From assembly GCA_001821395.1 (NCBI GenBank), contig MHLM01000010.1, forward strand, positions 1-57,064: a DNA stretch of 57,064 nt, given 5' to 3'. The position numbers and the translations under genes were made by a program. Under the pieces are notes generated by a model. The model worked only from the letters and a program-made list of their open reading frames with translations, searched no databases and was not told where the DNA came from. Source of the DNA: Candidatus Lloydbacteria bacterium RIFCSPHIGHO2_02_FULL_50_18. Its GTDB lineage: Bacteria > Patescibacteriota > Minisyncoccia > Phycocordibacterales > UBA6899. Of the stretch, positions 1-27,367 are shown in pieces (the first letter of the stretch is position 1; every line of letters starts with the position of its first letter).

Positions 1-3000
1 CCCGCATGCGCACCGGAATTGCGCGTTGTTGATGCCGCAAAATTCGCGGTCGTAGACCACTGGATCTCATACAACAAATCATCAGATTGCGGGTCTATTG
101 CCATGAATTCGAAGTATGGTGTGCGCGTCGCGATCTTTTGATTATCAAACGAAACGTACAATGTCGGCGTATCAACCTTATATCCCCACGAAATAGACCA
201 CTCGTTCACCACCTGAGTAGCAACGCTGAAATTAGCCTTGATGCGGAGAATCGGGTAATCCACGGGGTCGATACTGAGGAGTGACACGCCGGAGTTCGAG
301 AATCCTGCGCTATTTCCGGGAAGACTCGTATCGGGGACAAGTATCCATCCCGACGACGGAGAGGAATATTCGATCTGATAAAGCAGACTTCCTGATGGCT
401 CTCTGTCGTTCCACGTAAGCGAACCCCATACCGTCCCCGTCGTATGCAGCGCAAAATCGATCGCATCGGAATACGCCGTCGCGGTTGTTGACCCTACGTT
501 GACCACGATGGAATCGGTGGCATTCGCATTCGATCCATTGAACGTCGTCGCCGCCTGGAACTGATCGCGGGTCGTCTGATGCCATGTCGATATTGTTACC
601 GCAGTGTCAACGGTGAAGCTTTGCGCGCTATTCCAATCACTCCAGGTATTCGAATTGTTCGTATCCTTTGCGCGAATGCGCAACCAATACGTCGCACCAT
701 TCTGCAATGTACCGCTGACCGGCTTGAATTCGATGATATTTGCAGAGGTGAATGGTGCCTTATTCGTCGGATCGGTTATGTTGCTAAATAGTTCAGGGTT
801 GTTGATCGAGTCTGCATCAATGACCGATGAGGTGAAGGTTGCGGAGTATGATATTTGTATCTGATAATCGATATCGTTCGATTCTGTATCAGCCGAGCTG
901 AACTGAATGGACGGGGTTGTCGTTCCGATCTTTTCATACGAGAAGGGTGCCGCCTCGATCGGAATATTTGGTGCGGCATTGGTGAGTATCTGCGGATAGT
1001 TCGTATATGCATCAAGCGGCGTCCCGTCAGTCTCCACCATACGAAAACAGTAGAGCGTCGAAGACGTCGCCTGAAGTTGCTCGACGACCCAATCCCATTC
1101 TGCAAACCCGTCTTGAGCTATGAGATTAGGATTCACCGCCGAATTATTTTCCTCCACATAACTCTCCGCAACGGTTGACGAAGTAAGGAGGTAGGACGGG
1201 AGTGTTGCATTATGCGTCACGCTCGTATTGTTGTAACCGCGCCACGGCACACCCGTTGCACTCATCGCGGCAACGTCCGTCCAATTGAGTGCGGACGGAC
1301 AGTCATCTGCGGCAACATATTGCAACTTAAAGGCGACGCTACTCGTTGAGGTCGTTGCATTTGTTATCGCCAAGCTCATGCGGATACGCAGTCGGGTATT
1401 CGCGCTGATACTTTCTCCGGGCGTATTTATTTCGATATTCTCGTCATAATCACTTGCTCCCTGCGGCCACGGGTCGGTTGGAGTGATCGCATTTGTATTA
1501 TCGTAAAAGCGGAATGAATCTTGCGCGTAGACGGAAATACCGCTCAGACTTTTTGCAAATATCACATCGACATACGGTGGGAGCTGACTGTCGTCGGAAA
1601 AACCACTGATGTCAACCGTGTGCATATGTGCGGCACGAGCCTGTGCGTTCGCGGTGTTCGAACGATAGTCATTCAGATTATTTGCCACCCCCGTCACTGC
1701 TCCGTTGATGTTTGCATGGATATGAGAAGTCCCCCCACCGGTCGAGCCGTAGGTCGTCGACCCCTTCAAAAACTGACCGGCAAGCGCTCCTCCTGCATCC
1801 GAAACATTGACCCAACCCGCAGGTGGCGTATCGTCCCACATACCAATAAGATAATTCGGTGTCGACGATGCGACCGACATTCTGGCAAAAAGTACTTCGG
1901 TATACGGCGGCTCGTTGTTGACGACGTCAGTCGACGTCGCGGTCAATGTGTGCGTATGCGCAACATCGGTCGCGCCATTCGTCACACCGGTGCGCAAACG
2001 TAATCCTGATTGGGGAGGAGCCGAGGTGGTACCGGTCACTGCGTGACCATGCGTATTAGCGCCACCCGATGAGGTCACCGATGACTGGCTGCGAATATAG
2101 CGGCCGTCGAGCGGAGCATAGCGATACCAACCCGTCGGGAGCGACGATGAGGCGACATCGAACATGCCGATGGCTCCCGCAGGGATCGTTCCCGGATCAC
2201 CCGCAGATATCGACTTGATCACGCGCAGATCGCGGTAAAGCGGATAATTCGAGGAGGGAGCGATCGTTGGTGTAAGGGAGTGCGTATGTCCTATCGGAGC
2301 ATTAAGCGTACTCGCGGTCGAGTTTTCTCCGACACCTGTGGACGTAGTCAGATTGACTACGGCGATCGCGGTCGGTGTATGCGTTGCCGTTCCGCCGCCA
2401 AGGCCATTGTATGATGATGAACCCACCACGAGCTTCTCGAAGAACGGATCAATGGTAGCGCATGATACGCATAACCAGCCGGGAGGTAAAGCGCCCGCAC
2501 TGTCATAAAAGAGCATCATCTTTCCCGCAGCATCGGAAGCTATCTGCCATGCACGCAACTCAGTGAGATCGGCTCCCCCGTTCGTACTCTGCATCTCGAG
2601 AGGTCCGAGCAAATACAGATCAGGCGAGCGGTCCGGCGCATCAAAAATATACTGCAGGTCGATCGACCCGCCGGCGGGAAGCTTGACTGCCCATGTTGCG
2701 GTAAGAAACGAATGTTCGACATCTCCCCATTCGAGGTTGGCGTTCCCGCGATCAATGAACACAAAATCCCCCGGCACACGTTCAACGATATTACCCTCGA
2801 ATGCCTCGTTTGCCTGCACGCGGATCTTCATCGGATAGTGTGCAATCGGATAGATACGCGTCGGTCCCACACGCTCGATCGAATACGGCACGGTTGCTCT
2901 CACCTCAAAACTATCACTGACCTGGCTTGCGATATTTTGATCCTGATCAAAGCGTACAAGCTTGACCCGGTAAGTTCCTGTTGCCGCGGGCAGATATGTC

Positions 3001-6000
3001 GCAGCATAGTCCGGCACATCAATGACATTGTTCCCATCACAGAGACCGGACGGCGTGACCGACACTTCACTTTCAGCCCCGACCGTGTCCGTGACCCACA
3101 TCTTGAGTTGTGCATCGCAGATCGTATTACCATTATTCGACAGCGCACCGATGGAGATCACTGCGTTCTCTCCGGGGGTGAACATGCTCTTGTTGAAATT
3201 GATCGCGAGCACGCCCCAATAAAAATCGTATTCGTCGACGTAGGACTCCCCTCCCTCTTCAATCTCAACATGCAATGTATATTTTCCGGGACGTACGTTG
3301 CCGTGCGCATCACGGAGCGATACTGACCACTCATTATTGTCGCCGTAGCTGATATCGTAGTCGACGGGAATATCTCCCGCAACAACATGCTTGAGCACCA
3401 CGCGTGAAACCGTGAATGGCTTCACTCCAAACACGTCGCGCACCCCCTGCAGCAAACTGTTCGCCTGACGTTTGTACTTGAAAGTAAACGAAGGCATCTG
3501 TCGAATAGAGAACTCACGATCTTTCGAAAGCAGCGTATCGACATGATCTTTTTCACGACCATCAACGTCGACATCGAGCTTACGATGCTCTCCCGGAATG
3601 ACGAACTCCTCCCCGCCCATAGAGATATTGGGGTGGAGCGCCCCCGGCGTGCGCGTCATCTGCGGCGAGATAAGCGGAATGAGTCCGTAATGCCCACTTC
3701 CGTCGGTGCTCGCTTTCATGCTCGGAACAATGGCGGCGAGGAATGTCCGGGATATATCGCGAGAAAGGGAGCGCACAAAAGACCCCGCTGCAAACACCCC
3801 CTGCTCGGGTGTGATGAATGTTTTTCCCGGATATGCACCCCGCGCTGCACACGTTGAAGAAGCCATCAATCCTCCTTGAGAATTAAAGACACCGACGGCA
3901 AAAGCCTCCGCTCCGGGAGCACAGAGCACCGCGACACCGACGGCATCACTCGGGGAAATGTATGCGGATGCAAATTCCGTCTCGGGGAGCGCGCTCGTAA
4001 GATCGTCGCGAGACACGTCGACAAGACCTATCGCAGTACTTGCATCCATGACGCGAACGGCATCAGCCAAAAGTCCGCCCCCGGCTGCGCAATGGTTGAG
4101 GTTCACGCTCGACCCTGCTCTCCGTCCGTCAATATTTTGGCGTGCCTCATTTCCGCACGCGATCGTGAGTGCGGTTGCATCATCCCCGATACCAATGACA
4201 CTTTTCCCGACCTGAAAACCGTAGAGGTCTTCCATCGTAGCGGGATAGAGCGACGCTGATAAGGACTGTGCATTCGTTCCGAGTACGGCGATCATTCCCT
4301 GCGTTCCCGTGAGTGAGATACTGTCGGAAAGAGTGACTCCTCGCATGACGATAGACCCTTCGACCGGGTCAAGGATCGCGGGACCATCGGGAAGATCGAG
4401 CTCTGCATGAGTGACCTCTCCACCCGTTGTACCAAGTGCAAGTTCGCGTTCACCCCCGATACCGGGTATCACGAAATCATCGCCCAGATACCCCGTCGGA
4501 ACGAACGTAGCGTTCGCACCGGGCGCTTCGATGGAAGCGGTGATCGGACCGTCTGCGGATACGACGGTACCCGGCTTCATTCCGTCAAAAAGCGCACTTT
4601 CTCCGTATTTGAGGACAACTTCCGGTTTGCCGGGAACGCTGACGCGCACATGGTCATCGAGTGCTATGACATGAAGCGTCATGTCCGACTGACTACCCCC
4701 GAAAATGAGACCGCGCGGCGCGGGGAGAGCACTGCGGAACGGCGCAGCGGGATCAGAACGCGACGTCGTCGTTGCATAACCGTAATACATCGCGATCGTT
4801 GTTGATGTCCCCAATCCTTTTTCGTTCACCCGAACCCATGCCGAACCGGAGCGTGTCGTACTGTCAAAGCGAGATACCCAATATGGCAGCTCGGTTCCAC
4901 TCTCTTCATCGACGAAGCGAATGTCACTTCCGTCGCTCGCAATATGCTTCCAAAAATCAGGAGAAGCATCGTCAAGTGAAATAGGGACGGCAAATGTACC
5001 CGTAGCGGTCACGTTGCTATTGTCGATGGAGATGTGCGTGCGATAATTCCACGAACCATCCCACTCTGCCCTCACCAATCCGTATGCGCCCGACTGTGCA
5101 GCAGCCTCGACAAAAAAATCTCCGCGACCGTTCAACGGTACGGCGATGTCAGCGCGGAAGTACGCGGTAGCCCCAGGCTGGATCACCACCGAGTCAGCAA
5201 GATTCGCGATGGGAGCGATAACTGAGGGAATGATGTCCGGAGGCAGCTGGTTCAACAACAGGTCTATTGCTTTTGCAAAAAGCCCCTCAGTGTCCGAGAT
5301 CGCACCCGGCAGAAGTGCTTCATCTTCCCATCCGTCACGATATTCAGTACCTTCAGTGAGCCCGACGCGTGCACCGGCAGTGATACAGTTCGTGCGATCA
5401 TCATTGAGCCGATCACACGAGCGCACTTCATCGCTTGTGGCGCAGTGAAATGCCGTCGATGATGTTCCCACGGTCCAACCCGTATCACAAAAATATCCGA
5501 CATCATCGTACCGAAGCTGCCCCACCTTGTAGGGAACATTGTGCACGAATCGGGAAAGCGCACGCACACTTGCTCCTTCTGTCGGGAAATGAAACTGGAG
5601 CCGAACCACCTGCGGATCAGGACTCTCGTTGGTCACATTCACATAGGTACGACCTTCACCAAGTGCATCATAGATATTCTTGTCGGTCTTCACCGAAAGT
5701 ATCGCACCCTCGTACTCTTGTGCATTAACGAAAGCGAGTGCTTCGCCGTCAGGGAGCGTCAGCTGATCACGACGTGCCTTTCGCGCCTCGGCATCTTTAG
5801 CCGCGAGGGCGCTGCGCACGTTCATTCCCGAAAGAGCAACTTCCTCGGGTGACGCATCGACGATCGCATCGTTCGCGTATCGCGCATTGATCCAAATGCC
5901 GTCGACATACGCGGATGCATCAGCATCGCTGGTGCGGTCATATTCAACGACAACCTTGAGGTCAGTCAGATCCTCCCAATCGCCAATATCCGAAAGTTCA

Positions 6001-7100
6001 TATTTCAGGTAACTTCCGCGGTTTCCATTCGAGATGTCACCGCGCAACTCCGTGGCACCAAGAAATTGCCAATGCCCCGCATGATACGCACGGACGAGCA
6101 CGCGATCATACTCCCCCGACGTGAATGCTCCTCGTCCCGCGAGCGAAAGTTCCAGTGTCGCTCCAAGGAGCGGATTCTTGTCGAGCGCACCGCCCAATCC
6201 AAAACCATCGTACTCCATGACGTGACACGTTTTGCCGAGTGTAGTGCAGAGCGCTACCGTGTATGGGTCTGCACTTTCAACGGTCGGAATATTCGTGATC
6301 TTCGGAGTTTCCGTTCCACTCGTCGCGACGTCCGTTCCGGATGCACTGTTAAGATCGATCACTTCAAGTGACGATGTTGCTCCATCGCCGTCCGTTCTGC
6401 CCGATGCGAGCGGTGGCACTGAAAGCGAACCGATCCCGCTCGAAATAAATTTGTCCGTAATGGGCAGAGGAGCAGATGCATCGTTCACCTCCGCGATCGT
6501 ACTCGTTGGAACCTCAAGAGCAAGAGCAGAACGAGGATCCGACACGCGAGAAAGGAATTCGAACATTGCTCGGTCAAGCCTTGATTGGATACTGCTTGAG
6601 GCGATCTGTTCCATGCTCGGTATCGGAAGCAGTGTCGGCGTCTCAATGTTCAACCCCGATGGAACGAATGAATCGGGAAATTGCGATGAGATGATCGGTG
6701 TCGATGTCGCGACGGGAGACACCTCTTCAGGGATGACTTCAGGAGTGAACGCAGGAACAAGCGAGGTATCTATCGATACCGCGGGTAGCACATTTTCCGA
6801 TAACCCGTTCGTTGATGTCGCAGCGAGCGTACTCGTTGAGGCCCGAGTACCGTAAAATACTTGTGCGGAATTCTCATGTGTAAAATCAGCAAGCTCTGCA
6901 TCCGGAGAAAGATCCTGCATGAGCGACGCTTCATCACTCTCCCAGCCGTCACTCATGAGAGCGCTCGGAAAGATGTATACATTCGCCTCTTTTTCCGCGA
7001 GCACAAATTGCGTAAATGCCCACGATATCCCGATGAGCAGCAGTGCACCAAAAACGATACGCGCGCGTAGAGAAAAAGAGCTATTGAGCCGCCGCAACAT
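1..7100 (-). CDS. Giant secreted/surface protein, partial (ATG at 7100-7098; C-terminus beyond window start). N-terminus MLRRLNSSFSLRARIVFGALLLIGISW is a signal peptide/anchor. Contains repeated phage-tail-collar-like modules with HxH motifs.
   Basis: Hand translation confirmed the frame is open at 7100-7020, ~3000-2940 and ~2340-2210. All reported minus-strand ORFs in 1..7144 lie in other frames and are Arg-rich (wrong-frame signature). No ORF in the track terminates in this frame, so it runs off the edge. Repeats such as STASTLNAPIGHTHSL and GAIGMFDVASSSLPTGWY (about 2290-2130) resemble the tail-collar consensus (GxIxMF...PxGW...TxTL...PxHxH). Confidence 0.6.
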   Translation of the reverse strand, partial: MLRRLNSSFSLRARIVFGALLLIGISWAFTQFVLAEKEANVYIFPSALMSDGWESDEASLMQDLSPDAELADFTHENSAQVFYGTRASTSTLAATSTNGLSENVLPAVSIDTSLVPAFTPEVIPEEVSPVATSTPIISSQFPDSFVPSGLNIETPTLLPIPSMEQIASSSIQSRLDRAMFEFLSRVSDPRSALALEVPTSTIAEVNDASAPLPITDKFISSGIGSLSVPPLASGRTDGDGATSSLEVIDLNSASGTDVATSGTETPKITNIPTVESADPYTVALCTTLGKTCHVMEYDGFGLGGALDKNPLLGATLELSLAGRGAFTSGEYDRVLVRAYHAGHWQFLGATELRGDISNGNRGSYLKYELSDIGDWEDLTDLKVVVEYDRTSDADASAYVDGIWINARYANDAIVDASPEEVALSGMNVRSALAAKDAEARKARRDQLTLPDGEALAFVNAQEYEGAILSVKTDKNIYDALGEGRTYVNVTNESPDPQVVRLQFHFPTEGASVRALSRFVHNVPYKVGQLRYDDVGYFCDTGWTVGTSSTAFHCATSDEVRSCDRLNDDRTNCITAGARVGLTEGTEYRDGWEDEALLPGAISDTEGLFAKAIDLLLNQLPPDIIPSVIAPIANLADSVVIQPGATAYFRADIAVPLNGRGDFFVEAAAQSGAYGLVRAEWDGSWNYRTHISIDNSNVTATGTFAVPISLDDASPDFWKHIASDGSDIRFVDEESGTELPYWVSRFDSTTRSGSAWVRVNEKGLGTSTTIAMYYGYATTTSRSDPAAPFRSALPAPRGLIFGGSQSDMTLHVIALDDHVRVSVPGKPEVVLKYGESALFDGMKPGTVVSADGPITASIEAPGANATFVPTGYLGDDFVIPGIGGERELALGTTGGEVTHAELDLPDGPAILDPVEGSIVMRGVTLSDSISLTGTQGMIAVLGTNAQSLSASLYPATMEDLYGFQVGKSVIGIGDDATALTIACGNEARQNIDGRRAGSSVNLNHCAAGGGLLADAVRVMDASTAIGLVDVSRDDLTSALPETEFASAYISPSDAVGVAVLCAPGAEAFAVGVFNSQGGLMASSTCAARGAYPGKTFITPEQGVFAAGSFVRSLSRDISRTFLAAIVPSMKASTDGSGHYGLIPLISPQMTRTPGALHPNISMGGEEFVIPGEHRKLDVDVDGREKDHVDTLLSKDREFSIRQMPSFTFKYKRQANSLLQGVRDVFGVKPFTVSRVVLKHVVAGDIPVDYDISYGDNNEWSVSLRDAHGNVRPGKYTLHVEIEEGGESYVDEYDFYWGVLAINFNKSMFTPGENAVISIGALSNNGNTICDAQLKMWVTDTVGAESEVSVTPSGLCDGNNVIDVPDYAATYLPAATGTYRVKLVRFDQDQNIASQVSDSFEVRATVPYSIERVGPTRIYPIAHYPMKIRVQANEAFEGNIVERVPGDFVFIDRGNANLEWGDVEHSFLTATWAVKLPAGGSIDLQYIFDAPDRSPDLYLLGPLEMQSTNGGADLTELRAWQIASDAAGKMMLFYDSAGALPPGWLCVSCATIDPFFEKLVVGSSSYNGLGGGTATHTPTAIAVVNLTTSTGVGENSTASTLNAPIGHTHSLTPTIAPSSNYPLYRDLRVIKSISAGDPGTIPAGAIGMFDVASSSLPTGWYRYAPLDGRYIRSQSSVTSSGGANTHGHAVTGTTSAPPQSGLRLRTGVTNGATDVAHTHTLTATSTDVVNNEPPYTEVLFARMSVASSTPNYLIGMWDDTPPAGWVNVSDAGGALAGQFLKGSTTYGSTGGGTSHIHANINGAVTGVANNLNDYRSNTANAQARAAHMHTVDISGFSDDSQLPPYVDVIFAKSLSGISVYAQDSFRFYDNTNAITPTDPWPQGASDYDENIEINTPGESISANTRLRIRMSLAITNATTSTSSVAFKLQYVAADDCPSALNWTDVAAMSATGVPWRGYNNTSVTHNATLPSYLLTSSTVAESYVEENNSAVNPNLIAQDGFAEWDWVVEQLQATSSTLYCFRMVETDGTPLDAYTNYPQILTNAAPNIPIEAAPFSYEKIGTTTPSIQFSSADTESNDIDYQIQISYSATFTSSVIDADSINNPELFSNITDPTNKAPFTSANIIEFKPVSGTLQNGATYWLRIRAKDTNNSNTWSDWNSAQSFTVDTAVTISTWHQTTRDQFQAATTFNGSNANATDSIVVNVGSTTATAYSDAIDFALHTTGTVWGSLTWNDREPSGSLLYQIEYSSPSSGWILVPDTSLPGNSAGFSNSGVSLLSIDPVDYPILRIKANFSVATQVVNEWSISWGYKVDTPTLYVSFDNQKIATRTPYFEFMAIDPQSDDLLYEIQWSTTANFAASTTRNSGAHA

Positions 7101-7414
7101 GAATGTAAATCGATTGTGCATGAAACAAAATACCAGTCCTCCAACGGGATCGGTTATGCTGTGTATTTTACCAAAAAATGGCTAAAAATGGTGTTATTTC
7201 TACGCAATAATGAGCAGTGAACAGTGGCTCAACCGCACCACATTTGCTCTATGGTAAAAGTTTTCCACAGGTTAGTCTCCGTCGTGCGTCTTCTTCATTT
7301 TTTGATTGACAAATTTTTCATTGGATGATAGAAAGTGCAAGGATTTTTCTATCTTGAAAAGGCGCTACCGTGGTACAAAAAATATTGGCACGTGCAACCG
7401 TATCAGAGGCATCA

Positions 7415-7759
7415 ATGATGTCCGTACTGTCGATCTTTTTCGTTTTTCCGCTACTTTTTTTGAGCAATTGGTTCCTCGGCAAAAGAGGTTTGACACTCGC
7501 CATGAGTGACGCGGTGCTCGTCTGGACTTTGGCAATGGCGATTACGCACTCCTTGTTCTCACCGGTATCGTATACCGGGATTCTTGTTGCAGTTGCAGAA
7601 TCATTCGGGTACACCGTAGCGTTCAGTCTTGTTTACTGGCCGCTACCCAAACTTGAAGTATTGCTTATCTTCATTATTTTCGGTGTGGTGTCTTACTGCT
7701 TTGGACTCCTGCGCATCAAGCGCCTCAAGAAAAAAGGTTACGTAGAAAAAATAGCCTGA
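7415..7759 (+). CDS. Small hydrophobic membrane protein (hypothetical). The ORF-track start at 7370 is GTG; the ATG at 7415 is preceded by an AGAGG SD.
   Basis: ORF-track entry 7370..7759 has 3-4 predicted TM helices. An internal ATGATG at 7415 follows a Shine-Dalgarno (cagaggc). No family recognised. Confidence 0.4.
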   Translation: MMSVLSIFFVFPLLFLSNWFLGKRGLTLAMSDAVLVWTLAMAITHSLFSPVSYTGILVAVAESFGYTVAFSLVYWPLPKLEVLLIFIIFGVVSYCFGLLRIKRLKKKGYVEKIA

Positions 7760-7767
7760 CTAAAAAC

Positions 7768-7798
7768 AAACGCCATCCGGAACGGACGGCGTTTTTTT
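7768..7798 (+). terminator. Rho-independent terminator after the 7415..7759 gene
   Basis: GC-rich hairpin aacgccatccgg aac ggacggcgtt followed by TTTTTTT, 9 nt after the TGA at 7757-7759. Confidence 0.55.
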
Positions 7799-7912
7799 AT
7801 CCACATTTTTCAAACCCTACACCACACCGATCTCTTTAACGTGGGCATTCTTCATTAGAAAAACCTGCACATTAAAACATCCACAAAATCAGTACTACGC
7901 GTAGTAAAATTT

Positions 7913-7982
7913 CCAAATTGAGGTGCACCACAAGAGAACTTCATTTTTCTAAAACGGATTACCGTTAAGAAAAATTGGTCGC
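7913..7982. repeat. Intergenic repeat module A, copy 1 (contains the AACGG-ATTA-CCGTT hairpin); second copy at 17087..17151
   Basis: About 65 bp, ~85% identical to 17087..17151 (tgcaccac...acttcatttttctaa[a/g]acgg..taccgttaagaaaaattggtcgc). The stem ACGG/CCGT is conserved and the loop differs (atta vs ggta). Confidence 0.5.
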
Positions 7983-8060
7983 GATGCGAGGCAAAACAAG
8001 AGCACAAAAGTAAACTACGATAAAAGCTTTCACAATTTGGATGCGATTCGGCAAGTGCGC

Positions 8061-8162
8061 AATTTGGGATGAGCTGCGAGGCGACAAGGGGTGCGATGTC
8101 CGAGTGGACATACGTTGAGTATGTTCACCGGACTCGATCCCGCAGACAAAAAAGCAGATCGC
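8061..8162. repeat. Intergenic repeat module B, copy 1 (15-bp-stem hairpin GTCCGAGTGGACATAC/GTATGTTCACCGGAC); second copy at 17423..17523
   Basis: About 100 bp, >90% identical to 17423..17523 (gggatgagctgcgaggcgacaagggg.gcgatgtccgagtggacatac.ttgagtatgttcaccggactcg.tcc.cgcag...aagcagatcgc). Lies in non-coding DNA between convergent genes. Confidence 0.55.
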
Positions 8163-8178
8163 ACAAATTGCGTGCTTG

Positions 8179-9702
8179 CTACATGAGGAGCTTGCGGACG
8201 TCTTCCGCCTCTTTCGATATCAGCTCCTCCGAAAGATCGATCGCTTCATTGATGTTTTCCATGACCTCTCTGTCTTGAGCAGAAGGGTTCGGTTTTTGAA
8301 ATAAAGCTCCTGCCTGCTCCCCTATCTCCTCACGGAGTGCTGCAAAAATATTTCCCAAACTATCGCGGAGTTCATCCGCCTCACGTTTAGTGAGATACTT
8401 CTCTTTCCGAAACGCTTTTCGCTCATACCATAAATATCCGATCAGGAACGCAACAAGCGCAATAAGGAAAATGTTAGCGATAAGCGACCAGTCTGTTGGC
8501 TTTGGCGTATCGTCAACGGCGGCTTTTGCCGTCGCGGAAGGAACCTCTCCTTCGATCATAAACTTGCCGTCTACAGGAGTGTAATTCCCCGCTTTGTCAT
8601 AAGCCTTGAGCGTGGCGGAGTGCTCACCGGGTGTCTGGTTCGCTAGTGTATATTCACCATCTTTGATCTCGGCTAAGAGTATCTTTATCGGATTTCCCGC
8701 ATCAATGACAACTTCATAACGATCGATCCCCGACATCGTATCGGTTGCGGAGAATTTCATCTTTACATCGGTAGAAGAAGCGGGGACGGTAATATCCAGC
8801 GTGAATTCCGGTGGTGGCGTCTTGTCGACCATGATCTTTTTGTGCGTCACCGGACCCCAACCTCCTTCATTTTGATACTTCAAATGAAAGTACATCACCC
8901 CGTCGGTGAGTTGATCGAACTCCTTTTCATTGATCGCCGGATCGTAGCTCGTCTTAGGATCGGTCTTGGCACTCTTGTCGAGATCCATGCGCACGACCAT
9001 CACATCTGGCGGCAACTCCCACAAGAACCTTGCTTTGGGCGCATTGTAGTAAAGAGCCTCATCAGGATGAGATGTAGAAGTAACGTCCGGAGCTTCAGGT
9101 TTCGGTCCTAATGAGCCTACGTCGCCGCCCGAAGGAGCGGGAGGTGGTGGGGTGTTACTTGGAGCGGAGGCTGACACCGTATATGTGGCAATGCTTTTTG
9201 TACTTAAAATATCCGTACCTTTTCCGTCCGCCGCAAGTACAGAGCCCGTCGTGAAGGTGACATCGCTTTTCCCTTCTTTGACCCCCTTCAACGTGATGGT
9301 CAATATGGTCTTCTTTCCGGTAAGCCCGATCGTTCCCCCTCCGCCAAAGCTCAGTTTTCCTTCAGCGTTAGCAATGGTCGGCTCTTCCGGCCAGAATGAG
9401 AATGCTGAACTTGCCTTCGAGACACTTTCGAATGAAAGAATATTCTTATCAAAATTGATGACGGCATTCGCCGAGTTGAATGGTGCCGGCGACTCAACTG
9501 CAACAGTCACCGTAAGCGTCTTCCCTACCCCCATCGTTCCCGAAGGTGGACTGAACGAAAGCACCGCGCCCGTCGTCTGCACTTCTCCCGCCTGTTGCGC
9601 GAAAAGAATGCCCGGCGTACCGATGACCGCAAGTACGCAAAGGAAAATTCCAATAAGGCGTCTAGTAAGTGAGCGATGCATAAAGGTATGGCGGAGGAAC
9701 AT
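8179..9702 (-). CDS. Membrane-anchored surface protein: signal peptide, cohesin-like beta-sandwich domain, Pro-rich linker, C-terminal TM anchor, cytoplasmic coiled tail
   Basis: The ORF-track start at 9708 is GTG; ATGs at 9702 and 9681 both give MHRSLTRRLIGIFLCVLAV-type signal peptides. The N-terminal region GKTLTVTVAVESPAPFNSANAVINFDKNILSF...GKLSFGGGG...ILTITLKGVKEGKSDVTF matches the cohesin pattern. C-terminal hydrophobic stretch WSLIANIFLIALVAFLIGYLWY. Confidence 0.55.
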   Translation of the reverse strand: MFLRHTFMHRSLTRRLIGIFLCVLAVIGTPGILFAQQAGEVQTTGAVLSFSPPSGTMGVGKTLTVTVAVESPAPFNSANAVINFDKNILSFESVSKASSAFSFWPEEPTIANAEGKLSFGGGGTIGLTGKKTILTITLKGVKEGKSDVTFTTGSVLAADGKGTDILSTKSIATYTVSASAPSNTPPPPAPSGGDVGSLGPKPEAPDVTSTSHPDEALYYNAPKARFLWELPPDVMVVRMDLDKSAKTDPKTSYDPAINEKEFDQLTDGVMYFHLKYQNEGGWGPVTHKKIMVDKTPPPEFTLDITVPASSTDVKMKFSATDTMSGIDRYEVVIDAGNPIKILLAEIKDGEYTLANQTPGEHSATLKAYDKAGNYTPVDGKFMIEGEVPSATAKAAVDDTPKPTDWSLIANIFLIALVAFLIGYLWYERKAFRKEKYLTKREADELRDSLGNIFAALREEIGEQAGALFQKPNPSAQDREVMENINEAIDLSEELISKEAEDVRKLLM

Positions 9703-9708
9703 GGGCAC

Positions 9709-13651: not shown

Positions 13652-13776
13652 GGGTAGCGTGTAATTTGCGATGCAGAACGCGAAGCAAACAAAACGTGAA
13701 ACGAGGCGTACTCGGAGTACGTTGAGTGAGCGTTGCAGTTTGCGACAAAGTGCTGCGCGCAAATTACACGCTACCC
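13652..13776. repeat. Long inverted repeat: perfect 19-bp arms GGGTAGCGTGTAATTTGCG/CGCAAATTACACGCTACCC separated by 87 bp, overlapping the stop codon of 13771..15531
   Basis: Arms at 13652-13670 and 13758-13776. The spacer has its own hairpin (gcgtactcggagtacg). The minus-strand transcript would have TATTTTTA 5 nt after the stem, so this may be an unusually long terminator or a MITE-like element. Confidence 0.5.
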
Positions 13777-15531
13777 TGTCCAGTTGGCGAGCATGATCGA
13801 AAAGTCCACAAGATTCACCGTCCCATCCTGGTTGATGTCTGACACAGGGTCTGCACCTTTCCAATTGAAGAGCAATATCGAAAAGTCGATGAGATTCACC
13901 TTCTTGTCTTTGTTCAAGTCTGAACGATTTGAAAAATCGGGATTCGGAGAGCCGCCTATCCCGATATAGACGATCGGACTCAAAAGACTCTGGTCTTTCT
14001 TAGAGATCTGCGAAAGGGCTTTCACTTCAAAGGTCCCCTTCAGCAGTCCATCAGTAGGCAGCGTCATGCTCCAAGAGCCATTCCCATTCGCTGTCGTTGT
14101 TCCCGTAACGATCTTTCCCGACAGGGCATTCCCCTGCATGTTCATGATCGCAAGCACGGGGACGAGTGGTGCCCCATAACCGCTTAATCGTATCGTGTCA
14201 CCAACACCGATGGTCGTTGAAGCGGCAGTGATCGTTGGAGAAACATACACGGGGGCGATGATATTGTTCGTGCGGGCGATAAGATAGATCGTCGAGGAAT
14301 ACGTTGAGGAGAGCCTGCCCTTTTCATCGCGCACATAGACCCCCCATGTATAAGTGCCACGCTGCAGGTCGGTGAATTTTTCCGAAAAATCACCGCTCTG
14401 CGAAACGGTTCCCTCTCGTACGATCACACCGTCTTTTAATATCACGAAGGCAGAGAGCGGCGCGGCCTTTCCTTCAAGCGTCACGTCACCTCCGTTCATA
14501 AAAAGACCACCACCACCACCGGGACCCGATATGCCACCGCCGCCGGGAGAAGCAGGAGGTGGTGGCGGCGGTAAAGGAGGTGTGCTGGACGCTCCCGGTT
14601 CGACGCCTACCTCAAAATAAATAAGCATGTCGTCCGAATTCGCTACCAACGATGGTGTCTGACACCGTACATAAAAACTATAAATGGTATTCGTTGCCAC
14701 CGCCTCGGAACGATAGTGAAGCGATCCAAAATTCGCTGCGGTAAAACTCGTACTCCCCAGCATGTTCGTGTAGAGCACTCCGCTCGTTGTCGCATAGCGA
14801 CATGTTGCCGGGATATCGGTATTGAGCGATAACCAAACATTCTGTGTGGTACCCGGCAACAGCCCAGAAGGAAGACCGTTGCTCCGCGTCGGTTCGAAGA
14901 TCGGCAGCTCAACCGAGATACCCACCGGGAGAATGATGACAACGACTGTTGATCCGAAATCCAATTCACCATTGAGTACATTAGTGGTCAAAAGACGCAG
15001 GTGGCGCGAACCGACCGAAGCGGGATTTTCAATCGATAAAGTTCCAACCCCGCCGAACGTCGCAATGTCACCGATAGTGATCTTCACCGTATCCCCCGCA
15101 AGAATTCCCGCTCCGGAAGCGAGCGAAAAGACAATCTGACCGGATGCACCGGAAGTAACAGCGACGCCGATATTTGCCGCACTTGGTGTCGCCGCAAGCG
15201 TACGGTTTGTGAATGGTCCGGACGATGTACCTGCAACAGACAGATCGATATCCAAAAAACTCAATGCCGCGGGAATGATAAACCCCTCAGTAGGGCTGAT
15301 CACAATATGTCCGCTTGGAGGTATCGCCGTTGTGGCAGTGAACTGAATGACATGTGAGGTCGTCGTCGCTCCGGGCGCTGAGTTCGATATGGTGTCACTG
15401 ACAAAAGAAAGCGTCCCCGCATACGCAAACGGGGTCGATATGAAAAAAAAGAAAGCAGCAGAAACCCCGAGTGCGAGCGAGCGTACATATCGGCGTTGTT
15501 GATTAAAATGATGTAGGGAAAATTGTCTCAT
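13771..15531 (-). CDS. Secreted protein with a Pro/Gly-rich region and a C-terminal type I dockerin domain
   Basis: Signal peptide at the N-terminus. The C-terminus DLNKDKKVNLIDFSILLFNW...DINQDGTVNLVDFSIMLANW shows two dockerin Ca-binding repeats (DxNxDGxVNxxD). A PPLPPPPPPASPGGGG linker is present. Confidence 0.7.
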   Translation of the reverse strand: MRQFSLHHFNQQRRYVRSLALGVSAAFFFFISTPFAYAGTLSFVSDTISNSAPGATTTSHVIQFTATTAIPPSGHIVISPTEGFIIPAALSFLDIDLSVAGTSSGPFTNRTLAATPSAANIGVAVTSGASGQIVFSLASGAGILAGDTVKITIGDIATFGGVGTLSIENPASVGSRHLRLLTTNVLNGELDFGSTVVVIILPVGISVELPIFEPTRSNGLPSGLLPGTTQNVWLSLNTDIPATCRYATTSGVLYTNMLGSTSFTAANFGSLHYRSEAVATNTIYSFYVRCQTPSLVANSDDMLIYFEVGVEPGASSTPPLPPPPPPASPGGGGISGPGGGGGLFMNGGDVTLEGKAAPLSAFVILKDGVIVREGTVSQSGDFSEKFTDLQRGTYTWGVYVRDEKGRLSSTYSSTIYLIARTNNIIAPVYVSPTITAASTTIGVGDTIRLSGYGAPLVPVLAIMNMQGNALSGKIVTGTTTANGNGSWSMTLPTDGLLKGTFEVKALSQISKKDQSLLSPIVYIGIGGSPNPDFSNRSDLNKDKKVNLIDFSILLFNWKGADPVSDINQDGTVNLVDFSIMLANWTG

Positions 15532-17600: not shown

Positions 17601-17727
17601 GTGATGCTTTCAAATTGAGATGAAGAACGAGTTGAAATACAGATTTTGCTAGCAAGCCTTACTCCTGTAAGGTGAGGCGCAAAATCTGTATTTCAACGAA
17701 GTAATTCGCTCAATTTGGAAACATCAC
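17601..17727. repeat. About 127-bp imperfect palindrome with a perfect 18-bp inner stem (ttgaaatacagattttgc / gcaaaatctgtatttcaa) overlapping the stop codon of 17724..18788
   Basis: Outer arms gtgatgctttcaaattgag... / ...ctcaatttggaaacatcac are imperfect. The inner arms at 17631-17648 and 17678-17695 are perfect. No U-tract follows on either strand. Confidence 0.5.
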
Positions 17728-18788
17728 CCGAAATAGAAGAAGAGGATCAATAGTCCCACAATGATCGCAAACAATAACCCGATCGCCACTGCCGCCAAAC
17801 GCGAGATACCTCGCGCACCGCGCACCGCTCCCCCTCCGCGTGTACCCACCACTCCCGCTAACTGTCGACGCACATAGAGGCGGATCAAGACGTAGAGCAC
17901 GAGAATGAATGTGAAGAGTCCTCCAACGACCGGCCCGATGATGTTCATGGGGAGTATCCAGAATGATGTCACCGAGGAAATGGTCTGATTCCCTCCGTCA
18001 ACGAGAGGGATGACGAGCGCGACGACCGCCTCGAAGTGTCCGATCACAAATCCTTCAGGCTGCCACTTTACCTCATACTTTCCCGTACTATTCGGGGAAA
18101 TAACGTATGCGGTCTCATTGACGAGCAGTGATTCGACCTTCTTTCCGAACATATCGGTGATGTCGATCAAGCCTTGCGGTCGAGAAAGCGTATTCCCTTT
18201 ATTCTCCGCTTCAACGGTAAAGATCACGTTTGGAGAGCCGTAAATGAGCTTGTCGGTGAGGAATGCACGCATGCGTGTGTCTTCTTTGACATCACCCGCC
18301 ATTTGAAAATGAAGAATAGCCCCAATGTCAAACCCGACGGCAGAACCCTCCTTGAGATCGGGCGGTTTCTGCGTCAGAAACAATCCCGCAAGGTGTGAGC
18401 CGGGGCGCGCGTCAGCGGGAAATTTAACGGTAAAATGCAGCGTCGCACTACCGCCGGCAGGAACATCGAGCATTGATTCTGAATACGTGATCCACGACGC
18501 GAGCTCGGTCGCATTTGCATCGGCACCCTCCACGTAAACCGGCTGATGATCTAGAGCGATGGTGGCAATGTTCCGGGCAACGGGGTATAGCACAGTCCCC
18601 TGGTCGCCGCGATTTTCGACACGCATCGAATATGAGTGTTCCGAACTCGGCTCAACCTTATCTTCGATCGTCGTCGGGGAAAGATTAAAACTCACCTTAT
18701 TTTGCGCGAAGACCGCAAACGGCGTCATCAGCATGGCGGAACATGCGACAACAACAGCACCTCTTAATATCGTATTAGATCTCAACAT
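17724..18788 (-). CDS. Surface protein with signal peptide, beta-rich ectodomain, C-terminal TM helix and Arg/Gly-rich tail (DUF916/DUF3324-like architecture, assigned from memory)
   Basis: Signal peptide MLRSNTILRGAVVVACSAMLMTPFAVFA and C-terminal FWILPMNIIGPVVGGLFTFILVLYVLIRLYVRRQ. Paralogous to 24432..25817 and 25838..27109, which share the FWI(I/M)PW...TM motif. Confidence 0.5.
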   Translation of the reverse strand: MLRSNTILRGAVVVACSAMLMTPFAVFAQNKVSFNLSPTTIEDKVEPSSEHSYSMRVENRGDQGTVLYPVARNIATIALDHQPVYVEGADANATELASWITYSESMLDVPAGGSATLHFTVKFPADARPGSHLAGLFLTQKPPDLKEGSAVGFDIGAILHFQMAGDVKEDTRMRAFLTDKLIYGSPNVIFTVEAENKGNTLSRPQGLIDITDMFGKKVESLLVNETAYVISPNSTGKYEVKWQPEGFVIGHFEAVVALVIPLVDGGNQTISSVTSFWILPMNIIGPVVGGLFTFILVLYVLIRLYVRRQLAGVVGTRGGGAVRGARGISRLAAVAIGLLFAIIVGLLILFFYFG

Positions 18789-19033: not shown

Positions 19034-20185
19034 CTAGAAGATCGGAGTACAGACGTAGGTGATAACGTTGTTGTAGTCGACAGCGGCTTCCTGGAGTGCG
19101 GTGACCTGTACGCGATATCCGACACGTGTCTTTCCGATGTTGTCAGTTGTTCCATCCGCAACAGCATTATGATAGAGCACGGTTCGTGTCGACGTCGCGG
19201 TAAGTCCGGCATAGAGCGACGTACCAAAGGCATCTGTTGGAAGCGATGAATCTTCAGATGTCACACCCATATGTCCATAGGTCTCGGTAACTCCAAGAGT
19301 TCCAGCGGGTGTCGTCCATGCAACAGGGGCACCAGTCACCGCTTCATTGTCCTTAAACGCATTAATGTTCGCACCATTTGCTGAGGTAAGATCCTGGTTT
19401 TCAGTGATCGTCACAGAGAAGCCATTGAATGCATTCGTCGCTACGGTGATGTCTTGCGCTGCTATTGAGGATGTACCGACAGAGATGACACCGAACCCAA
19501 TAGCAGTTGCTGATGTTGAGGTCGACGTCGTATCACCATTTATCATAGAACTTGAAGCAACGCCGGCAATCGTAAAGGTCAAATTAGTGTCGACGATGGC
19601 GGTCATAGTGACGGAACTAATGATCGCGATGCGTGTATCTGCGGCATCAGTCATGGTGCCGTTTATACGAACAACATAGGATCCATTCGTACCATTGACG
19701 ACATGCGCATTGGAGATATTCACGAGAATAGCTCCTGCGGCGATAGAATCACCAGTACATGTAGTAAATTCTATATAATCGGGATTGGTGCCTTGATTTG
19801 AGGCATATATCTCATCTGTACCCCCCGCACACGCACCGATATTTGCAACCTGAGTAAGACCACCACCGGTACGTGAAATATGCACATCGGTACCGAGGGC
19901 CACCGCAGAAACATCAAAAGTATTCCCGGTCGGATCAAACGTGATGCGTGTTGTGGATCCGGTAGAACCACCGATGGGATTTACGGTCGTGAATCGCACC
20001 ATATAGTTAGTAGAAACCGATGGCGCTGATGAGGACGCGGTTGCGCTCACAGACAGCAACTGCGACGCAGATGCAGTATTAAAAAGAAACGGGAGGCCGA
20101 GTGCCCATGAAAGGGTTGCGACGACGAGGGTCGTGGCGAGCCACTTCATACGAATTAAAGAACGAAATGCGCTTGTGTAGTCCAT
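19034..20185 (-). CDS. Secreted Ser/Thr-rich beta-rich protein, paralog 1 of a tandem triplet (conserved N-terminus ASQLxSVSATASSSAPS..TNYMVRFTTVN and C-terminus ITYVCTPIF)
   Basis: About 60% identical to 20608..21765 and 21805..22980 over the full length. Signal peptide present and 4 conserved Cys. No recognised domain; the WxL-like idea is unconfirmed because no W-x-L motifs were seen. Confidence 0.6.
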   Translation of the reverse strand: MDYTSAFRSLIRMKWLATTLVVATLSWALGLPFLFNTASASQLLSVSATASSSAPSVSTNYMVRFTTVNPIGGSTGSTTRITFDPTGNTFDVSAVALGTDVHISRTGGGLTQVANIGACAGGTDEIYASNQGTNPDYIEFTTCTGDSIAAGAILVNISNAHVVNGTNGSYVVRINGTMTDAADTRIAIISSVTMTAIVDTNLTFTIAGVASSSMINGDTTSTSTSATAIGFGVISVGTSSIAAQDITVATNAFNGFSVTITENQDLTSANGANINAFKDNEAVTGAPVAWTTPAGTLGVTETYGHMGVTSEDSSLPTDAFGTSLYAGLTATSTRTVLYHNAVADGTTDNIGKTRVGYRVQVTALQEAAVDYNNVITYVCTPIF

Positions 20186-20607: not shown

Positions 20608-21765
20608 CTAGAAGGTAGATGTGCAGACGTATGTGATCTGGTTCGTGTAGTCTGATGCAGCCTCCTGCAATGCCGACACTTGAATACGGAATCCAACCCG
20701 AGTTTTACCAATATTCGCCGTGGTACCATCAGCAGGTCCAGTGTGAAAGAGGATTGTACGCGTCGATGTCGACGAAAGCCCTGCATAAAGCTGTGAGCCA
20801 AAGTCGTCACCGGGAAGCGATACGTCTTCCGAAGTAATACCCATATGCCCGTAAGTATTTGGACTACCGATCGTTCCCACTGGTGCTGTCCAAGCTGTCG
20901 GCGAGCCGGTCACTGCATTCCCATCCTTAAATGCATTGATCGTTGCGCCATTTGCCGAAGTGAGATCCTGATTTTCGGTCACCGTAACACTAAAGCCGTT
21001 CAACGCATTAGTTGAGACCGAAACATCCTGTGCTGCAACAGAAGAGGTTCCAACAGAGAGTGTCCCGAATCCAATTGCGGTCGCAGTACTCGACGTCGAA
21101 GTCGTATCGCCGTTCACGGGGGAACTCGACGCTACTGTGGCGATAGTAAACGTTAGGTTCGTATCGACGATTCCCGTCATGGCAACCTGATTAATGATCG
21201 CAACGCGTGTATCAGCGGAGTCAGCCATCGTACCATTAATCCGTACGACATACGATCCGGATGCAGAAGGATTCACGGCATGTGCACCAGCTATATTTAC
21301 CGTTATAGTACCGGCAGCAATGATATCCCCGGGGCACGTTAAAAGCTCTACATAGTCGGATGCACCTGCAACGACTTGAGACACATACATTTCGCTCACG
21401 GCTCCCGAACACGATCCGAATGCAGCAACCTGCGTAAGACCTCCAGTTAAACGAGAAACTGTTACATTGCCGTTCGTAAGCGCAGTGAGATCAAAGAGTC
21501 CGCCTTGGGGATCAAACGTGATACGCGTTGTCGAAGCCGTAACTGCCTGCCCTATTGCATTCACTGTCGTGAATCGCACCATATAGTTTGTCGCAATGGA
21601 AGGCGCTGACGACGATGCGGTTGCGCTCACAGAATTTAGCTGTGATGCGTAAGTCGGAGTGAATAGCTGGAATGCCGGAAATATCCAACCGACCATTGCG
21701 ATGATGATCGCGGCAGAGATGACTCTCGAGCTCATGAGATGCAATGATCGGTTGTAATAGTTCAC
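20608..21765 (-). CDS. Secreted Ser/Thr-rich protein, paralog 2 of the triplet
   Basis: See paralog 1. Only 39 bp separate it from paralog 3 upstream, so the two are probably co-transcribed. Confidence 0.6.
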   Translation of the reverse strand: MNYYNRSLHLMSSRVISAAIIIAMVGWIFPAFQLFTPTYASQLNSVSATASSSAPSIATNYMVRFTTVNAIGQAVTASTTRITFDPQGGLFDLTALTNGNVTVSRLTGGLTQVAAFGSCSGAVSEMYVSQVVAGASDYVELLTCPGDIIAAGTITVNIAGAHAVNPSASGSYVVRINGTMADSADTRVAIINQVAMTGIVDTNLTFTIATVASSSPVNGDTTSTSSTATAIGFGTLSVGTSSVAAQDVSVSTNALNGFSVTVTENQDLTSANGATINAFKDGNAVTGSPTAWTAPVGTIGSPNTYGHMGITSEDVSLPGDDFGSQLYAGLSSTSTRTILFHTGPADGTTANIGKTRVGFRIQVSALQEAASDYTNQITYVCTSTF

Positions 21766-27109: not shown

Positions 27110-27237
27110 ACTTCTTATTATAGAGTACGTTTGCGCAGATAAGCTGGGGACAACTCTAGAGTTCAACAAATAAACCCCAACTTCTTTGTTGCGGTGCCCA
27201 TGCGACTCGGTCAACGTATATGAATACGTCTTCTCCC

Positions 27238-27289
27238 CTACGGGGACTTCCAAATTCATACTCCCCATGGTCGTTGAATTTCTGGTCGC
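27238..27289. repeat. Intergenic repeat module E (homologous to 17309..17367)
   Basis: ctacggggacttccaaattcatactcc.catggtcg.tgaatttc.ggtcg is ~80% identical to the segment inserted in the 17-kb repeat locus. Confidence 0.4.
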
Positions 27290-27367
27290 TCGTCGCTTTT
27301 CCCGCGCCTCGCATCTGGGGTTATTTGATGAACTCCTACGTTTGATAGATGTTTGCATACGGAATAT

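What the first reader, a model, noticed from the sequence alone, without database searches (positions are those of the whole stretch)
1..7100. Giant edge-truncated surface-protein gene missing from the ORF track, with phage-tail-collar-like HxH repeats
The first 7.1 kb shows only short Arg-rich wrong-frame ORFs in the track. Hand translation of the minus strand from the ATG at 7100 (MLRRLNSSFSLRARIVFGALLLIGISW...) stayed open at every point I checked, and no track ORF ends in that frame. The gene therefore exceeds 2366 codons and its stop lies outside the window. Around 2400-1560 the protein carries at least five modules of the form G.IGMF/W...P.GW...T.TL.....H.H (HTH, HGH, HTH, HIH, HMH). This is the signature I associate with the phage tail-collar / MdpB-like domain, here repeated inside a cellular surface giant.
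Basis: partly seen in the sequence, partly recalled or inferred. Interest (0 to 1): 0.6.

Follow-up and report, generated by a model that had tools for sequence, protein, structure and literature searches.

The report
Three-in-one phage-fibre tip in giant protein
The first 7.1 kb is the start of a real ~6,245-residue surface-protein gene of a tiny uncultured (CPR) bacterium, and its histidine repeats are three fused copies of a phage tail-fibre tip module that probably fold together as one unit for binding other cells.

Summary
The minus-strand frame from the ATG at 7100 is open for all 2366 codons. Identical public contigs call the complete gene at 6245/6243 aa, so the window holds about 38% of it. 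The organism is a Candidatus Lloydbacteria (Parcubacteria, CPR) MAG.

They belong to three tandem ~110-aa modules (aa 1524-1856), not five, each with two HxH positions.

The family is large (4,388 clusters) and unannotated. Modules always occur as contiguous M1-M2-M3 triplets, 3 or 6 per protein.

Best reading: a single-chain pseudo-trimer of a phage fibre tip with axial His metal sites, serving as an adhesion head. The fold geometry, metal binding and function are inferred, not shown.

The parts
3..7100 (-). First 2366 codons of a giant gene. It is complete at 6245/6243 aa on identical public contigs, and its stop lies about 11.6 kb beyond the window's left edge.
   Evidence: No stop in frame. 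The public gene calls use the same start. The window is 100% identical to L002/L003 over 20,224 bases. The frame stays open to codon 2464.
6996..7100 (-). Start codon (7098-7100) and N-terminal signal anchor, aa 1-35 (MLRRLNSSFSLRARIVFGALLLIGISWAFTQFVLA).
   Evidence: This is the most hydrophobic 19-mer of the protein (Kyte-Doolittle 2.03, starting at aa 15), and it follows four Arg. P0181 and the small family members have similar N-termini.
6231..6848 (-). Ser/Thr/Pro/Ala-rich low-complexity linker, about aa 85-290.
   Evidence: S+T+P+A fraction is 0.42-0.48 per 50-aa window. No family hit.
4737..4934 (-). DUF2341 domain (PF10102), aa 723-788.
   Evidence: E 1.2e-15, 58.1 bits against a cut-off of 23.4.
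2541..3566 (-). Conserved region upstream of the cassette (aa 1179-1520), shared with other cassette-bearing giants.
   Evidence: blastp: 40% identity to P0102 from aa 1179 and 41% to P0112 from aa 1189. No Pfam family above threshold.
2187..2531 (-). Module M1, aa 1524-1638. Site-1 motif is degenerate (H1574-T-P1576, window 2373-2381). Site-2 motif is HTH1605-1607 (window 2280-2288).
   Evidence: Module HMM E 3e-24. Motif states HP / HH.
1863..2186 (-). Module M2, aa 1639-1746. HGH1684-1686 (window 2043-2051) and HTH1715-1717 (window 1950-1958).
   Evidence: Module HMM E 9e-30. Motif states HH / HH.
1533..1862 (-). Module M3, aa 1747-1856. HIH1793-1795 (window 1716-1724) and HMH1825-1827 (window 1620-1628).
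   Evidence: Module HMM E 1.3e-29. This is the module matched by the solved tail fibre 9qgo.
891..1532 (-). Partner domain directly after the cassette, aa 1857-2070. It also follows the cassette in small secreted homologues, and it occurs without a cassette in ORF 27368-32701.
   Evidence: 35% identity to aa 1230-1451 of the 1777-aa ORF. The same domain is read by eye after the cassette in P0015, P0022, P0023 and P0024.
3..929 (-). Start of an Ig/FN3-like repeat region, aa 2058-2366, which continues beyond the window.
   Evidence: Ig_Rha78A_N at E 1.2e-3, below threshold. The equivalent region of P0112 scores 1.3e-9. Internal repeats appear in blastp against P0181, P0102 and P0112.
7768..7794 (-). 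Terminator-like hairpin between the upstream cohesin-domain gene and the giant gene. It suggests the giant gene is a separate transcription unit.
   Evidence: 12-bp stem with 7 G-C pairs followed by a T run. This is a consensus match only.

Best explanation
Window 3-7100 (-) encodes the first 2366 residues of a ~6245-residue extracellular protein of a Candidatus Lloydbacteria (Parcubacteria/CPR) bacterium. The protein is anchored or secreted through its N-terminus.

Residues 1524-1856 form one cassette of three tandem ~110-aa modules (M1-M2-M3). Each module is homologous to the C-terminal tip module that phage tail fibres carry once per chain and assemble as homotrimers around His-coordinated metal ions.

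I infer that the three modules fold together as a single-chain pseudo-trimer. In that arrangement the HxH of each module would contribute to axial metal sites. One site would have six His (H1605/1607, H1715/1717, H1825/1827). The other would have five (H1574, H1684/1686, H1793/1795).

I further infer that this rigid phage-type head, together with the partner domain that follows it, serves to bind surface structures of another cell or an extracellular polymer.

Shown: the gene, its length, the three-module anatomy, the homology to phage fibres, and the triplet rule. Inferred: the pseudo-trimeric packing, metal binding and the adhesion role.
For: Gene and length. Organism: exact HSP20 and TldD proteins equal NCBI OGZ04823.1 and OGZ04825.1 of a Ca. 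Lloydbacteria MAG, lineage Patescibacteria > Parcubacteria.

Modules: pairwise E 2e-13 to 6e-7.

HxH chemistry. In trimeric fibres HxH motifs bind Fe, and T4 gp37 holds seven iron ions; octahedral coordination is described for the HxH sites modelled in phage R22Y (PMC11705849).

Pseudo-trimer.
(i) Of 176 family proteins, 147 have 3 and 19 have 6 near-full modules. All 10 exceptions resolve to 3 or 6, or are truncated fragments. None has 2, 4 or 5.
(ii) In 15 proteins not used to build the models, the order is always contiguous M1-M2-M3, and 6 means two separate cassettes.
(iii) The AF2 model of the three-module unit has pLDDT 80 and pTM 0.77, with cores at 90-96. One module alone gives pLDDT 75, pTM 0.46 and only 9 residues at 90 or above.
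(iv) The site-2 HxH is intact in all three modules in 170 of 187 cassettes and never in fewer than two. Complete loss of site 1 is seen in 6 cassettes against 0.8 expected if losses were independent.
(v) The model matches phage phiAsp2 Pas28 and Pas29 globally (E 3e-14, TMq 0.55). Both have three modules with 4 HxH each.

Extracellular role: the N-terminal anchor, small homologues consisting of a signal peptide plus cassette plus partner domain, and cohesin- and dockerin-domain neighbours.
Against: I could not read the model's coordinates, so convergence of the His residues on a pseudo-threefold axis is unverified.

pTM depends on length, so the single-module comparison is only suggestive.

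Site 1 is incomplete in the window protein and in 62 of 187 cassettes, so six His are not obligatory there. The all-or-none excess is modest (117 against 106 +- 3) and is not corrected for phylogeny.

The listed family members are the 150 top scorers, which favours multi-module proteins, so single-module relatives would not be seen.

Nothing tests binding or metal content. No ligand is known.
Confidence: 0.62

Rival explanations
1. The giant protein itself forms a homotrimeric fibre. Each module would pair with the same module of two other chains (M1x3, M2x3, M3x3), giving successive inter-chain HxH knots as in T4 gp37.
For: All solved relatives are homotrimers. gp37 stacks several HxH sites along one chain. 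Pas28 and Pas29 are phage tail-region proteins, a class that is commonly trimeric.
Against: A homotrimer puts no constraint on module number, yet 3 or 6 is the rule, with none at 2, 4 or 5. The monomer AF2 model is confident as one unit (pTM 0.77). M1, M2 and M3 carry position-specific signatures kept across the family.
Confidence: 0.12
2. The three modules are independent Collar-like domains, arranged as beads on a string. Each would fold alone, and the HxH motifs would be local structural or metal sites.
For: Tandem repeats of small beta domains are common in giant surface proteins. The isolated module still gets pLDDT 75. The N-terminal motif aligns to the Collar start.
Against: There are no linkers between modules. 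The modules follow a strict triplet rule and fixed order. Confidence and pTM fall when a module is folded alone. Solved homologues are intertwined trimers.
Confidence: 0.12
3. The gene is a phage, prophage or tailocin tail-fibre gene and not a cellular surface protein.
For: The module is homologous to tail fibres, and the best fold matches are phage proteins.
Against: No PHROG hit above noise. The neighbours are HSP20, TldD/PmbA, an amino-acid permease and a P-type ATPase on contigs of 58-85 kb. The protein has an N-terminal membrane anchor and is ~6245 aa long. Collinear 4.6-6.2k-aa relatives exist.
Confidence: 0.04
4. The cassette is a metal-dependent enzyme, and the HxH motifs are catalytic ligands.
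For: HxH is a frequent metal-ligand motif in enzymes. The function of MdpB-type Collar proteins is unknown.
Against: No enzyme family hits in Pfam or NCBIfam. Every significant sequence or fold relative is a structural fibre protein. The region between the two HxH is the least conserved and least confident part of the module.
Confidence: 0.05

Closest known systems
Pas28 and Pas29 of Actinoplanes phage phiAsp2 (UniProt Q6J803, Q6J802)
   Same: Three tandem modules in one chain. They give the best fold matches to the AF2 model (E 3e-14, prob 1.00, TMq 0.55). tblastn to Pas28 gives E 1e-6. Pas29 is annotated as a possible receptor-recognising protein with HXHY motifs.
   Different: They are phage tail-region proteins of 936-1291 aa. 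They have four HxH per module (12 per chain) where the window cassette has two per module. Identity is only 19-27%. They have no N-terminal anchor and no giant context. They also lack any Pfam family.
Homotrimeric HxH tail-fibre tips: C24 of a Bizionia prophage (6ov6), Pseudomonas phage Pa223 gp60 (9nxk), 'Tail fiber protein' 9qgo, and the T4 gp37 tip (2xgf)
   Different: They have one module per chain and three identical chains per fibre. Here three diverged modules are fused in one chain and embedded in the middle of a giant protein instead of sitting at a C-terminus.
Pfam Collar (PF07484): T4 gp12 residues 344-400 and MdpB-type proteins
   Same: The N-terminal strand and P-x-G-(W/Y) motif align at the Collar start (hhalign 61%, E 8e-5). 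Greedy extension keeps the order RGxFxRG, then HxH, then the C-terminal strand. The third-best viral fold hit is named as a tail collar domain protein.
   Different: No PF07484 HMM hit in any of 30 members. The ~30-aa Collar insert is absent, appearing as a gap in the hhalign alignment. Statistical support is limited to 21 columns.
Unannotated giants of uncultured bacteria: P0181 (6229 aa), P0102 (5997 aa), P0112 (4626 aa); Parcubacteria GW2011_GWA2 partial protein P0001
   Same: P0181 is collinear with the window protein over 2347 aa at 43% identity. The cassette sits at the same position and the N-terminal anchor is the same. P0001 is 85% identical over the cassette.
   Different: They are different species. 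None is named or characterised, so they add architecture but no function.

Membership tests
Pfam Collar (PF07484, Phage Tail Collar Domain) | HMM match at or above the gathering score (24 bits) | tested here: not met
   No hit at E<=1 on the whole protein or at E<=10 on aa 1561-1860. 0 of 30 family members hit. Positive control: T4 gp12 hits at 51.9 bits, aa 344-400.
Pfam Collar (PF07484, Phage Tail Collar Domain) | N-terminal beta strand plus P-x-G-(W/Y/F) motif homologous to the Collar start | tested here: inconclusive
   hhalign of the module profile against a 12-sequence Collar profile gives 61% probability and E 8e-5 over 21 columns, with a reversed-template control of E 0.72. Against gp12 alone it gives 14% at gp12 341-361.
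Pfam Collar (PF07484, Phage Tail Collar Domain) | The ~30-aa insert between the first strand and the RG-x-F-x-RG motif (Y..LF..IG..YGG...F.LPDLRG) | tested here: not met
   The segment aligns as a ~30-aa gap in the module. The only helix call in the AF2 models is a 3-residue turn in M2.
HxH metal-binding trimeric phage fibre tip (T4 gp37 / C24 / Pa223 gp60 type) | Sequence similarity to solved members | tested here: met
   Profile search of PDB sequences: 9qgo 2.2e-4, 9nxk 1.6e-3, 6ov6 0.019. 9qgo scores 1.3e-4 with the three-module profile.
HxH metal-binding trimeric phage fibre tip (T4 gp37 / C24 / Pa223 gp60 type) | Fold similarity to solved members | tested here: inconclusive
HxH metal-binding trimeric phage fibre tip (T4 gp37 / C24 / Pa223 gp60 type) | Conserved HxH motifs | tested here: met
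   The site-2 HxH is invariant or nearly invariant in all three modules. It is intact in all three modules in 170 of 187 cassettes.
HxH metal-binding trimeric phage fibre tip (T4 gp37 / C24 / Pa223 gp60 type) | One module per chain, assembled from three identical chains | tested here: not met
   Three diverged modules per chain, always as M1-M2-M3. The oligomeric state itself cannot be tested here.
HxH metal-binding trimeric phage fibre tip (T4 gp37 / C24 / Pa223 gp60 type) | Metal ion (Fe or Zn) coordinated by six His on the threefold axis | not testable with these tools
The stoichiometry (3 x HxH per site) fits.
DUF2341 (PF10102) | HMM match at or above the gathering score (23.4 bits) | tested here: met
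   58.1 bits, E 1.2e-15, aa 723-788.
Single-chain triple-module proteins (phiAsp2 Pas28/Pas29 type; unnamed) | Three contiguous modules in one chain with a global fold match | tested here: met
   Foldseek BFVD gives E 3.2e-14 and 4.2e-14, TMq 0.55 and 0.54. The module HMM finds three modules in each of Pas28 and Pas29.

The most novel reading that the evidence does not exclude
The cassette defines a large, undescribed domain family of at least 4,388 clusters at 50% identity. In it, three protomers of a trimeric phage receptor-binding fibre tip have been fused into one chain. This would let monomeric cellular proteins, notably the giant surface proteins of CPR bacteria, display a phage-type metal-stapled binding head. 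The same fused form occurs in at least one phage (phiAsp2). If CPR bacteria use it to attach to host cells, it would be a cell-attachment device shared between episymbiotic bacteria and phages.
Probability: 0.35. Interest if true: 0.75.

Novelty: new variant of a known kind. Interest (0 to 1): 0.6.

Why it matters
CPR bacteria are thought to live attached to other cells (general knowledge, not tested here), and what their many giant surface proteins do is largely unknown.

This work gives one conserved piece of such a giant a concrete and testable identity. It appears to be a phage receptor-binding tip turned into a single-chain unit by triplication.

It also supplies a ready-made profile for a family of thousands of unannotated proteins. 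It suggests a compact construct of about 330 aa, or small secreted homologues of 450-620 aa, for structural, metal-content and binding experiments.

For phage structural biology it would be a natural example of converting an obligate homotrimeric fibre knot into a monomer. That is relevant to engineering receptor-binding proteins.

Tried and rejected
- **Exact-DNA scans.** Scans with window bases 1-50 found nothing in genome contigs or metagenome contigs.
- **Cohesin ORF look-up.** Looking up the 509-aa cohesin ORF failed. Public calls give 500 or 507 aa, so the start codon I used probably differs. The HSP20 look-up succeeded instead.
- **Full-length protein.** Searching with aa 1861-2366 did not return the 6245-aa protein. 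The remaining ~3,880 aa were therefore not read directly, and the 43%-identical P0181 serves only as a proxy.
- **Family libraries.** PHROGs and NCBIfam gave nothing useful.
- **Foldseek on PDB chains.** Nothing significant.
- **afdb50.** The library was unavailable.
- **gp10 C-terminal link.** hhalign against T4 gp10 was negligible (0.6%), and only one family member hit Gp10_C, at E 0.034. I do not rely on it.
- **gp12 tip search.** It returned only 2 proteins, so I built the Collar profile from phage tblastn hits.
- **Coordinated HxH loss.** The test gave only modest support.
- **Promoter scan.** It found no sigma-70-like site on the minus strand upstream of the ATG. This is uninformative for CPR.
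- **Literature.** Searches found no description of a single-chain triplicated fibre module. The library is limited, so this is not proof of novelty.
Full report
**Observation**

Translating the minus strand from the ATG at 7100 gives 2366 codons with no stop. The ORF lister omits ORFs that run off an end of the source, and this explains why only short ORFs are listed in 1-7100.

A look-up of the neighbouring HSP20 protein found the same locus on longer public contigs. The window is 100% identical to two of them over the shared 20,224 bases. The gene call there starts at the same ATG. Where the contig is long enough, the product is 6245 aa (JGI 3300002502) or 6243 aa (ENA ERZ4903137). The window therefore holds about 38% of the gene, and the stop lies about 11.6 kb beyond the left edge. 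On one locus the frame stays open to codon 2464.

Exact matches of two neighbouring proteins to NCBI entries OGZ04823.1 and OGZ04825.1 place the window in a Candidatus Lloydbacteria MAG. Its lineage is Patescibacteria > Parcubacteria group.

**Anatomy of the window part**

- The N-terminus has four Arg followed by the most hydrophobic segment of the protein (aa 15-35). This is a signal anchor.
- A Ser/Thr/Pro/Ala-rich linker follows.
- The only Pfam domain above threshold is DUF2341 at aa 723-788.
- All five HxH motifs of the protein lie in aa 1605-1827. Composition predicts 0.56, and five or more occurred in 0.01% of shuffles.
- The motifs do not mark five modules. There are three G-x-I-x-M-(F/W)...P-x-G-W starts and three tandem modules: aa 1524-1638, 1639-1746 and 1747-1856. 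The modules are mutually similar at E 2e-13 to 6e-7. Each has two HxH positions, and the first position of module 1 is degenerate (H-T-P).
- No other gene in the window has the module.

**Is it a Collar domain?**

PF07484 does not hit the protein, the isolated region at E<=10, or any of 30 family members. T4 gp12 hits normally at aa 344-400.

A remote relationship is still plausible. The module profile aligns to gp12 residues 341-361, exactly at the Collar start. Against a 12-sequence Collar profile built from phage hits, the match reaches 61% probability and E 8e-5, compared with E 0.72 for a reversed-template control.

Only the first 21 columns carry that signal. Greedy extension keeps the order of the remaining motifs (RGxFxRG, HxH, C-terminal strand), with the Collar family's ~30-aa insert appearing as a gap.

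**What the module is**

- A profile of the single module (A2) hits three solved phage tail fibres by sequence: 9qgo (2.2e-4), Pa223 gp60 9nxk (1.6e-3) and C24 6ov6 (0.019). Each entry holds three identical chains, with the module at the C-terminal end.
- C24 is a putative long-tail-fibre receptor-binding tip (PMC11821841).
- HxH motifs in such fibres bind iron, and T4 gp37 holds seven iron ions; octahedral coordination is described for the HxH sites modelled in phage R22Y (PMC11705849).
- The AF2 model of the three-module unit is usable (pLDDT 80, pTM 0.77).
- Against predicted viral structures it matches Pas28 and Pas29 of Actinoplanes phage phiAsp2 at E 3e-14 and TMq 0.55. A protein named as containing a tail collar domain follows at E 3.5e-3.
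- Pas28 and Pas29 lie in the tail gene region. Each has three tandem modules with four HxH per module.

**The triplet rule**

The three-module unit is conserved as a whole in 29 unannotated proteins. The consensus carries 3 x 2 HTH motifs.

An exhaustive search with the single-module profile finds 4,388 clusters at E<=1e-3. Many are giants of 5-6.8k aa.

Among 176 family proteins, 147 have three and 19 have six near-full modules. The ten exceptions resolve in one of three ways: as three or six once split hits are counted, as two triplets with a Gly-rich insertion in the middle module, or as truncated fragments.

In 15 proteins not used to build the models, the modules are always contiguous and ordered M1-M2-M3. 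Six modules means two separate cassettes.

A protein with four or five modules would outscore the three-module ones and so would be listed, yet none is.

**Mechanism**

The simplest account is that the three modules replace the three chains of a fibre tip and fold together as a single-chain pseudo-trimer.

Supporting evidence:
- the triplet rule and the fixed module order;
- the absence of linkers between modules;
- the confident single-unit model;
- the drop in confidence when one module is folded alone (pLDDT 75, pTM 0.46, nine residues at 90 or above);
- the near-universal presence of the site-2 HxH in all three modules (170 of 187 cassettes).

Site 1 is less strict. It is intact in all three modules in 111 cassettes, in two in 62, in one in 8 and in none in 6. 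Complete loss is about eight times more frequent than independent loss would predict, but the overall all-or-none excess is modest and is not corrected for phylogeny.

I could not read the model's coordinates. The convergence of the His residues, metal binding and the oligomeric state therefore remain inferences.

**Function**

The small homologues consist of a signal peptide, the cassette and a C-terminal domain. In several of them that domain is the same one that follows the cassette in the giant. The same domain also occurs in the window's second large ORF.

The window's neighbours include cohesin- and dockerin-domain proteins and ordinary cellular genes, with no phage genes.

I therefore read the cassette as an extracellular binding head of phage-fibre ancestry on a cell-anchored giant protein. 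It would most likely attach to another cell's surface or to an extracellular polymer. This last step is the least supported.

**Rivals**

- A homotrimeric giant fibre with inter-chain knots. This does not explain the triplet rule.
- Independent bead-like domains. This has the same problem.
- A phage or tailocin gene. The genomic context and the N-terminal anchor argue against it.
- An enzyme. There is no support for it.

**Novelty**

The gene and its relatives are in public databases as hypothetical proteins. The module has no Pfam, NCBIfam or PHROG family. I found no paper describing the fused form.

It is best classed as a new variant of a known kind, the HxH phage fibre tip with a remote Collar affinity.

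Noticed in passing
window 27368-32701 (-): This second large ORF (1777 aa) has no Pfam family above threshold. Its aa 1230-1451 are 35% identical to the domain that follows the cassette in the giant (aa 1855-2070), so that partner domain also occurs without a cassette.
   Followed up: partly
window 19034-20185, 20608-21765, 21805-22980 (-): These are three tandem paralogues, 63-65% identical, with no Pfam family. Their C-terminal ~190 aa resemble the C-terminus of the 1777-aa ORF at 29-30% identity.
   Followed up: partly
window 8179-9708 (-) and 13771-15531 (-): A cohesin-domain protein and a dockerin/Big_6-domain protein flank HSP20 and two tandem TldD/PmbA genes, directly upstream of the giant gene. 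This may be a cohesin-dockerin pairing in a CPR genome.
   Followed up: no
window 48282-49475 (-): One 397-aa protein combines a peptidoglycan-binding domain, a weak purple-acid-phosphatase N-terminal (FN3-like) match below threshold, and a cytochrome b5-like haem-binding domain. This is an unusual combination.
   Followed up: no
window 7768-7794 (-) and 7101-8178: A strong terminator-like hairpin (12-bp stem) sits in the ~1.1-kb AT-richer gap (GC 0.43) between the cohesin gene and the giant gene. Public records call a small ORF of 85-114 aa on the opposite strand here.
   Followed up: no
L005 4117-7992 and 8025-10835 (Actinoplanes phage phiAsp2 Pas28, Pas29): Two adjacent phage tail-region proteins each carry three tandem modules with 4 HxH per module (12 per chain). 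Neither has a Pfam family.
   Followed up: partly
P0054, P0060, P0118 (family members, not in the window): In this subfamily the middle module of each triplet is split by a ~130-200-aa Gly-rich insertion ending in ...GSGIVIIRY. Read by eye, each cassette appears to be preceded by a DUF2341-like segment.
   Followed up: partly
P0061 (5472 aa family member, not in the window): This giant has two cassettes. Its C-terminal third contains many CxxCH-type motifs (for example CAYCHG, CTSCHDPHG, CMGCHTSTHG), which suggests multihaem cytochrome-like repeats. This was read by eye only.
   Followed up: no
window 17724-18788, 24432-25817, 25838-27358 (-): These three ORFs have no Pfam family and are distant paralogues of each other, at 23-29% identity with E 1e-14 to 3e-31.
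   Followed up: no
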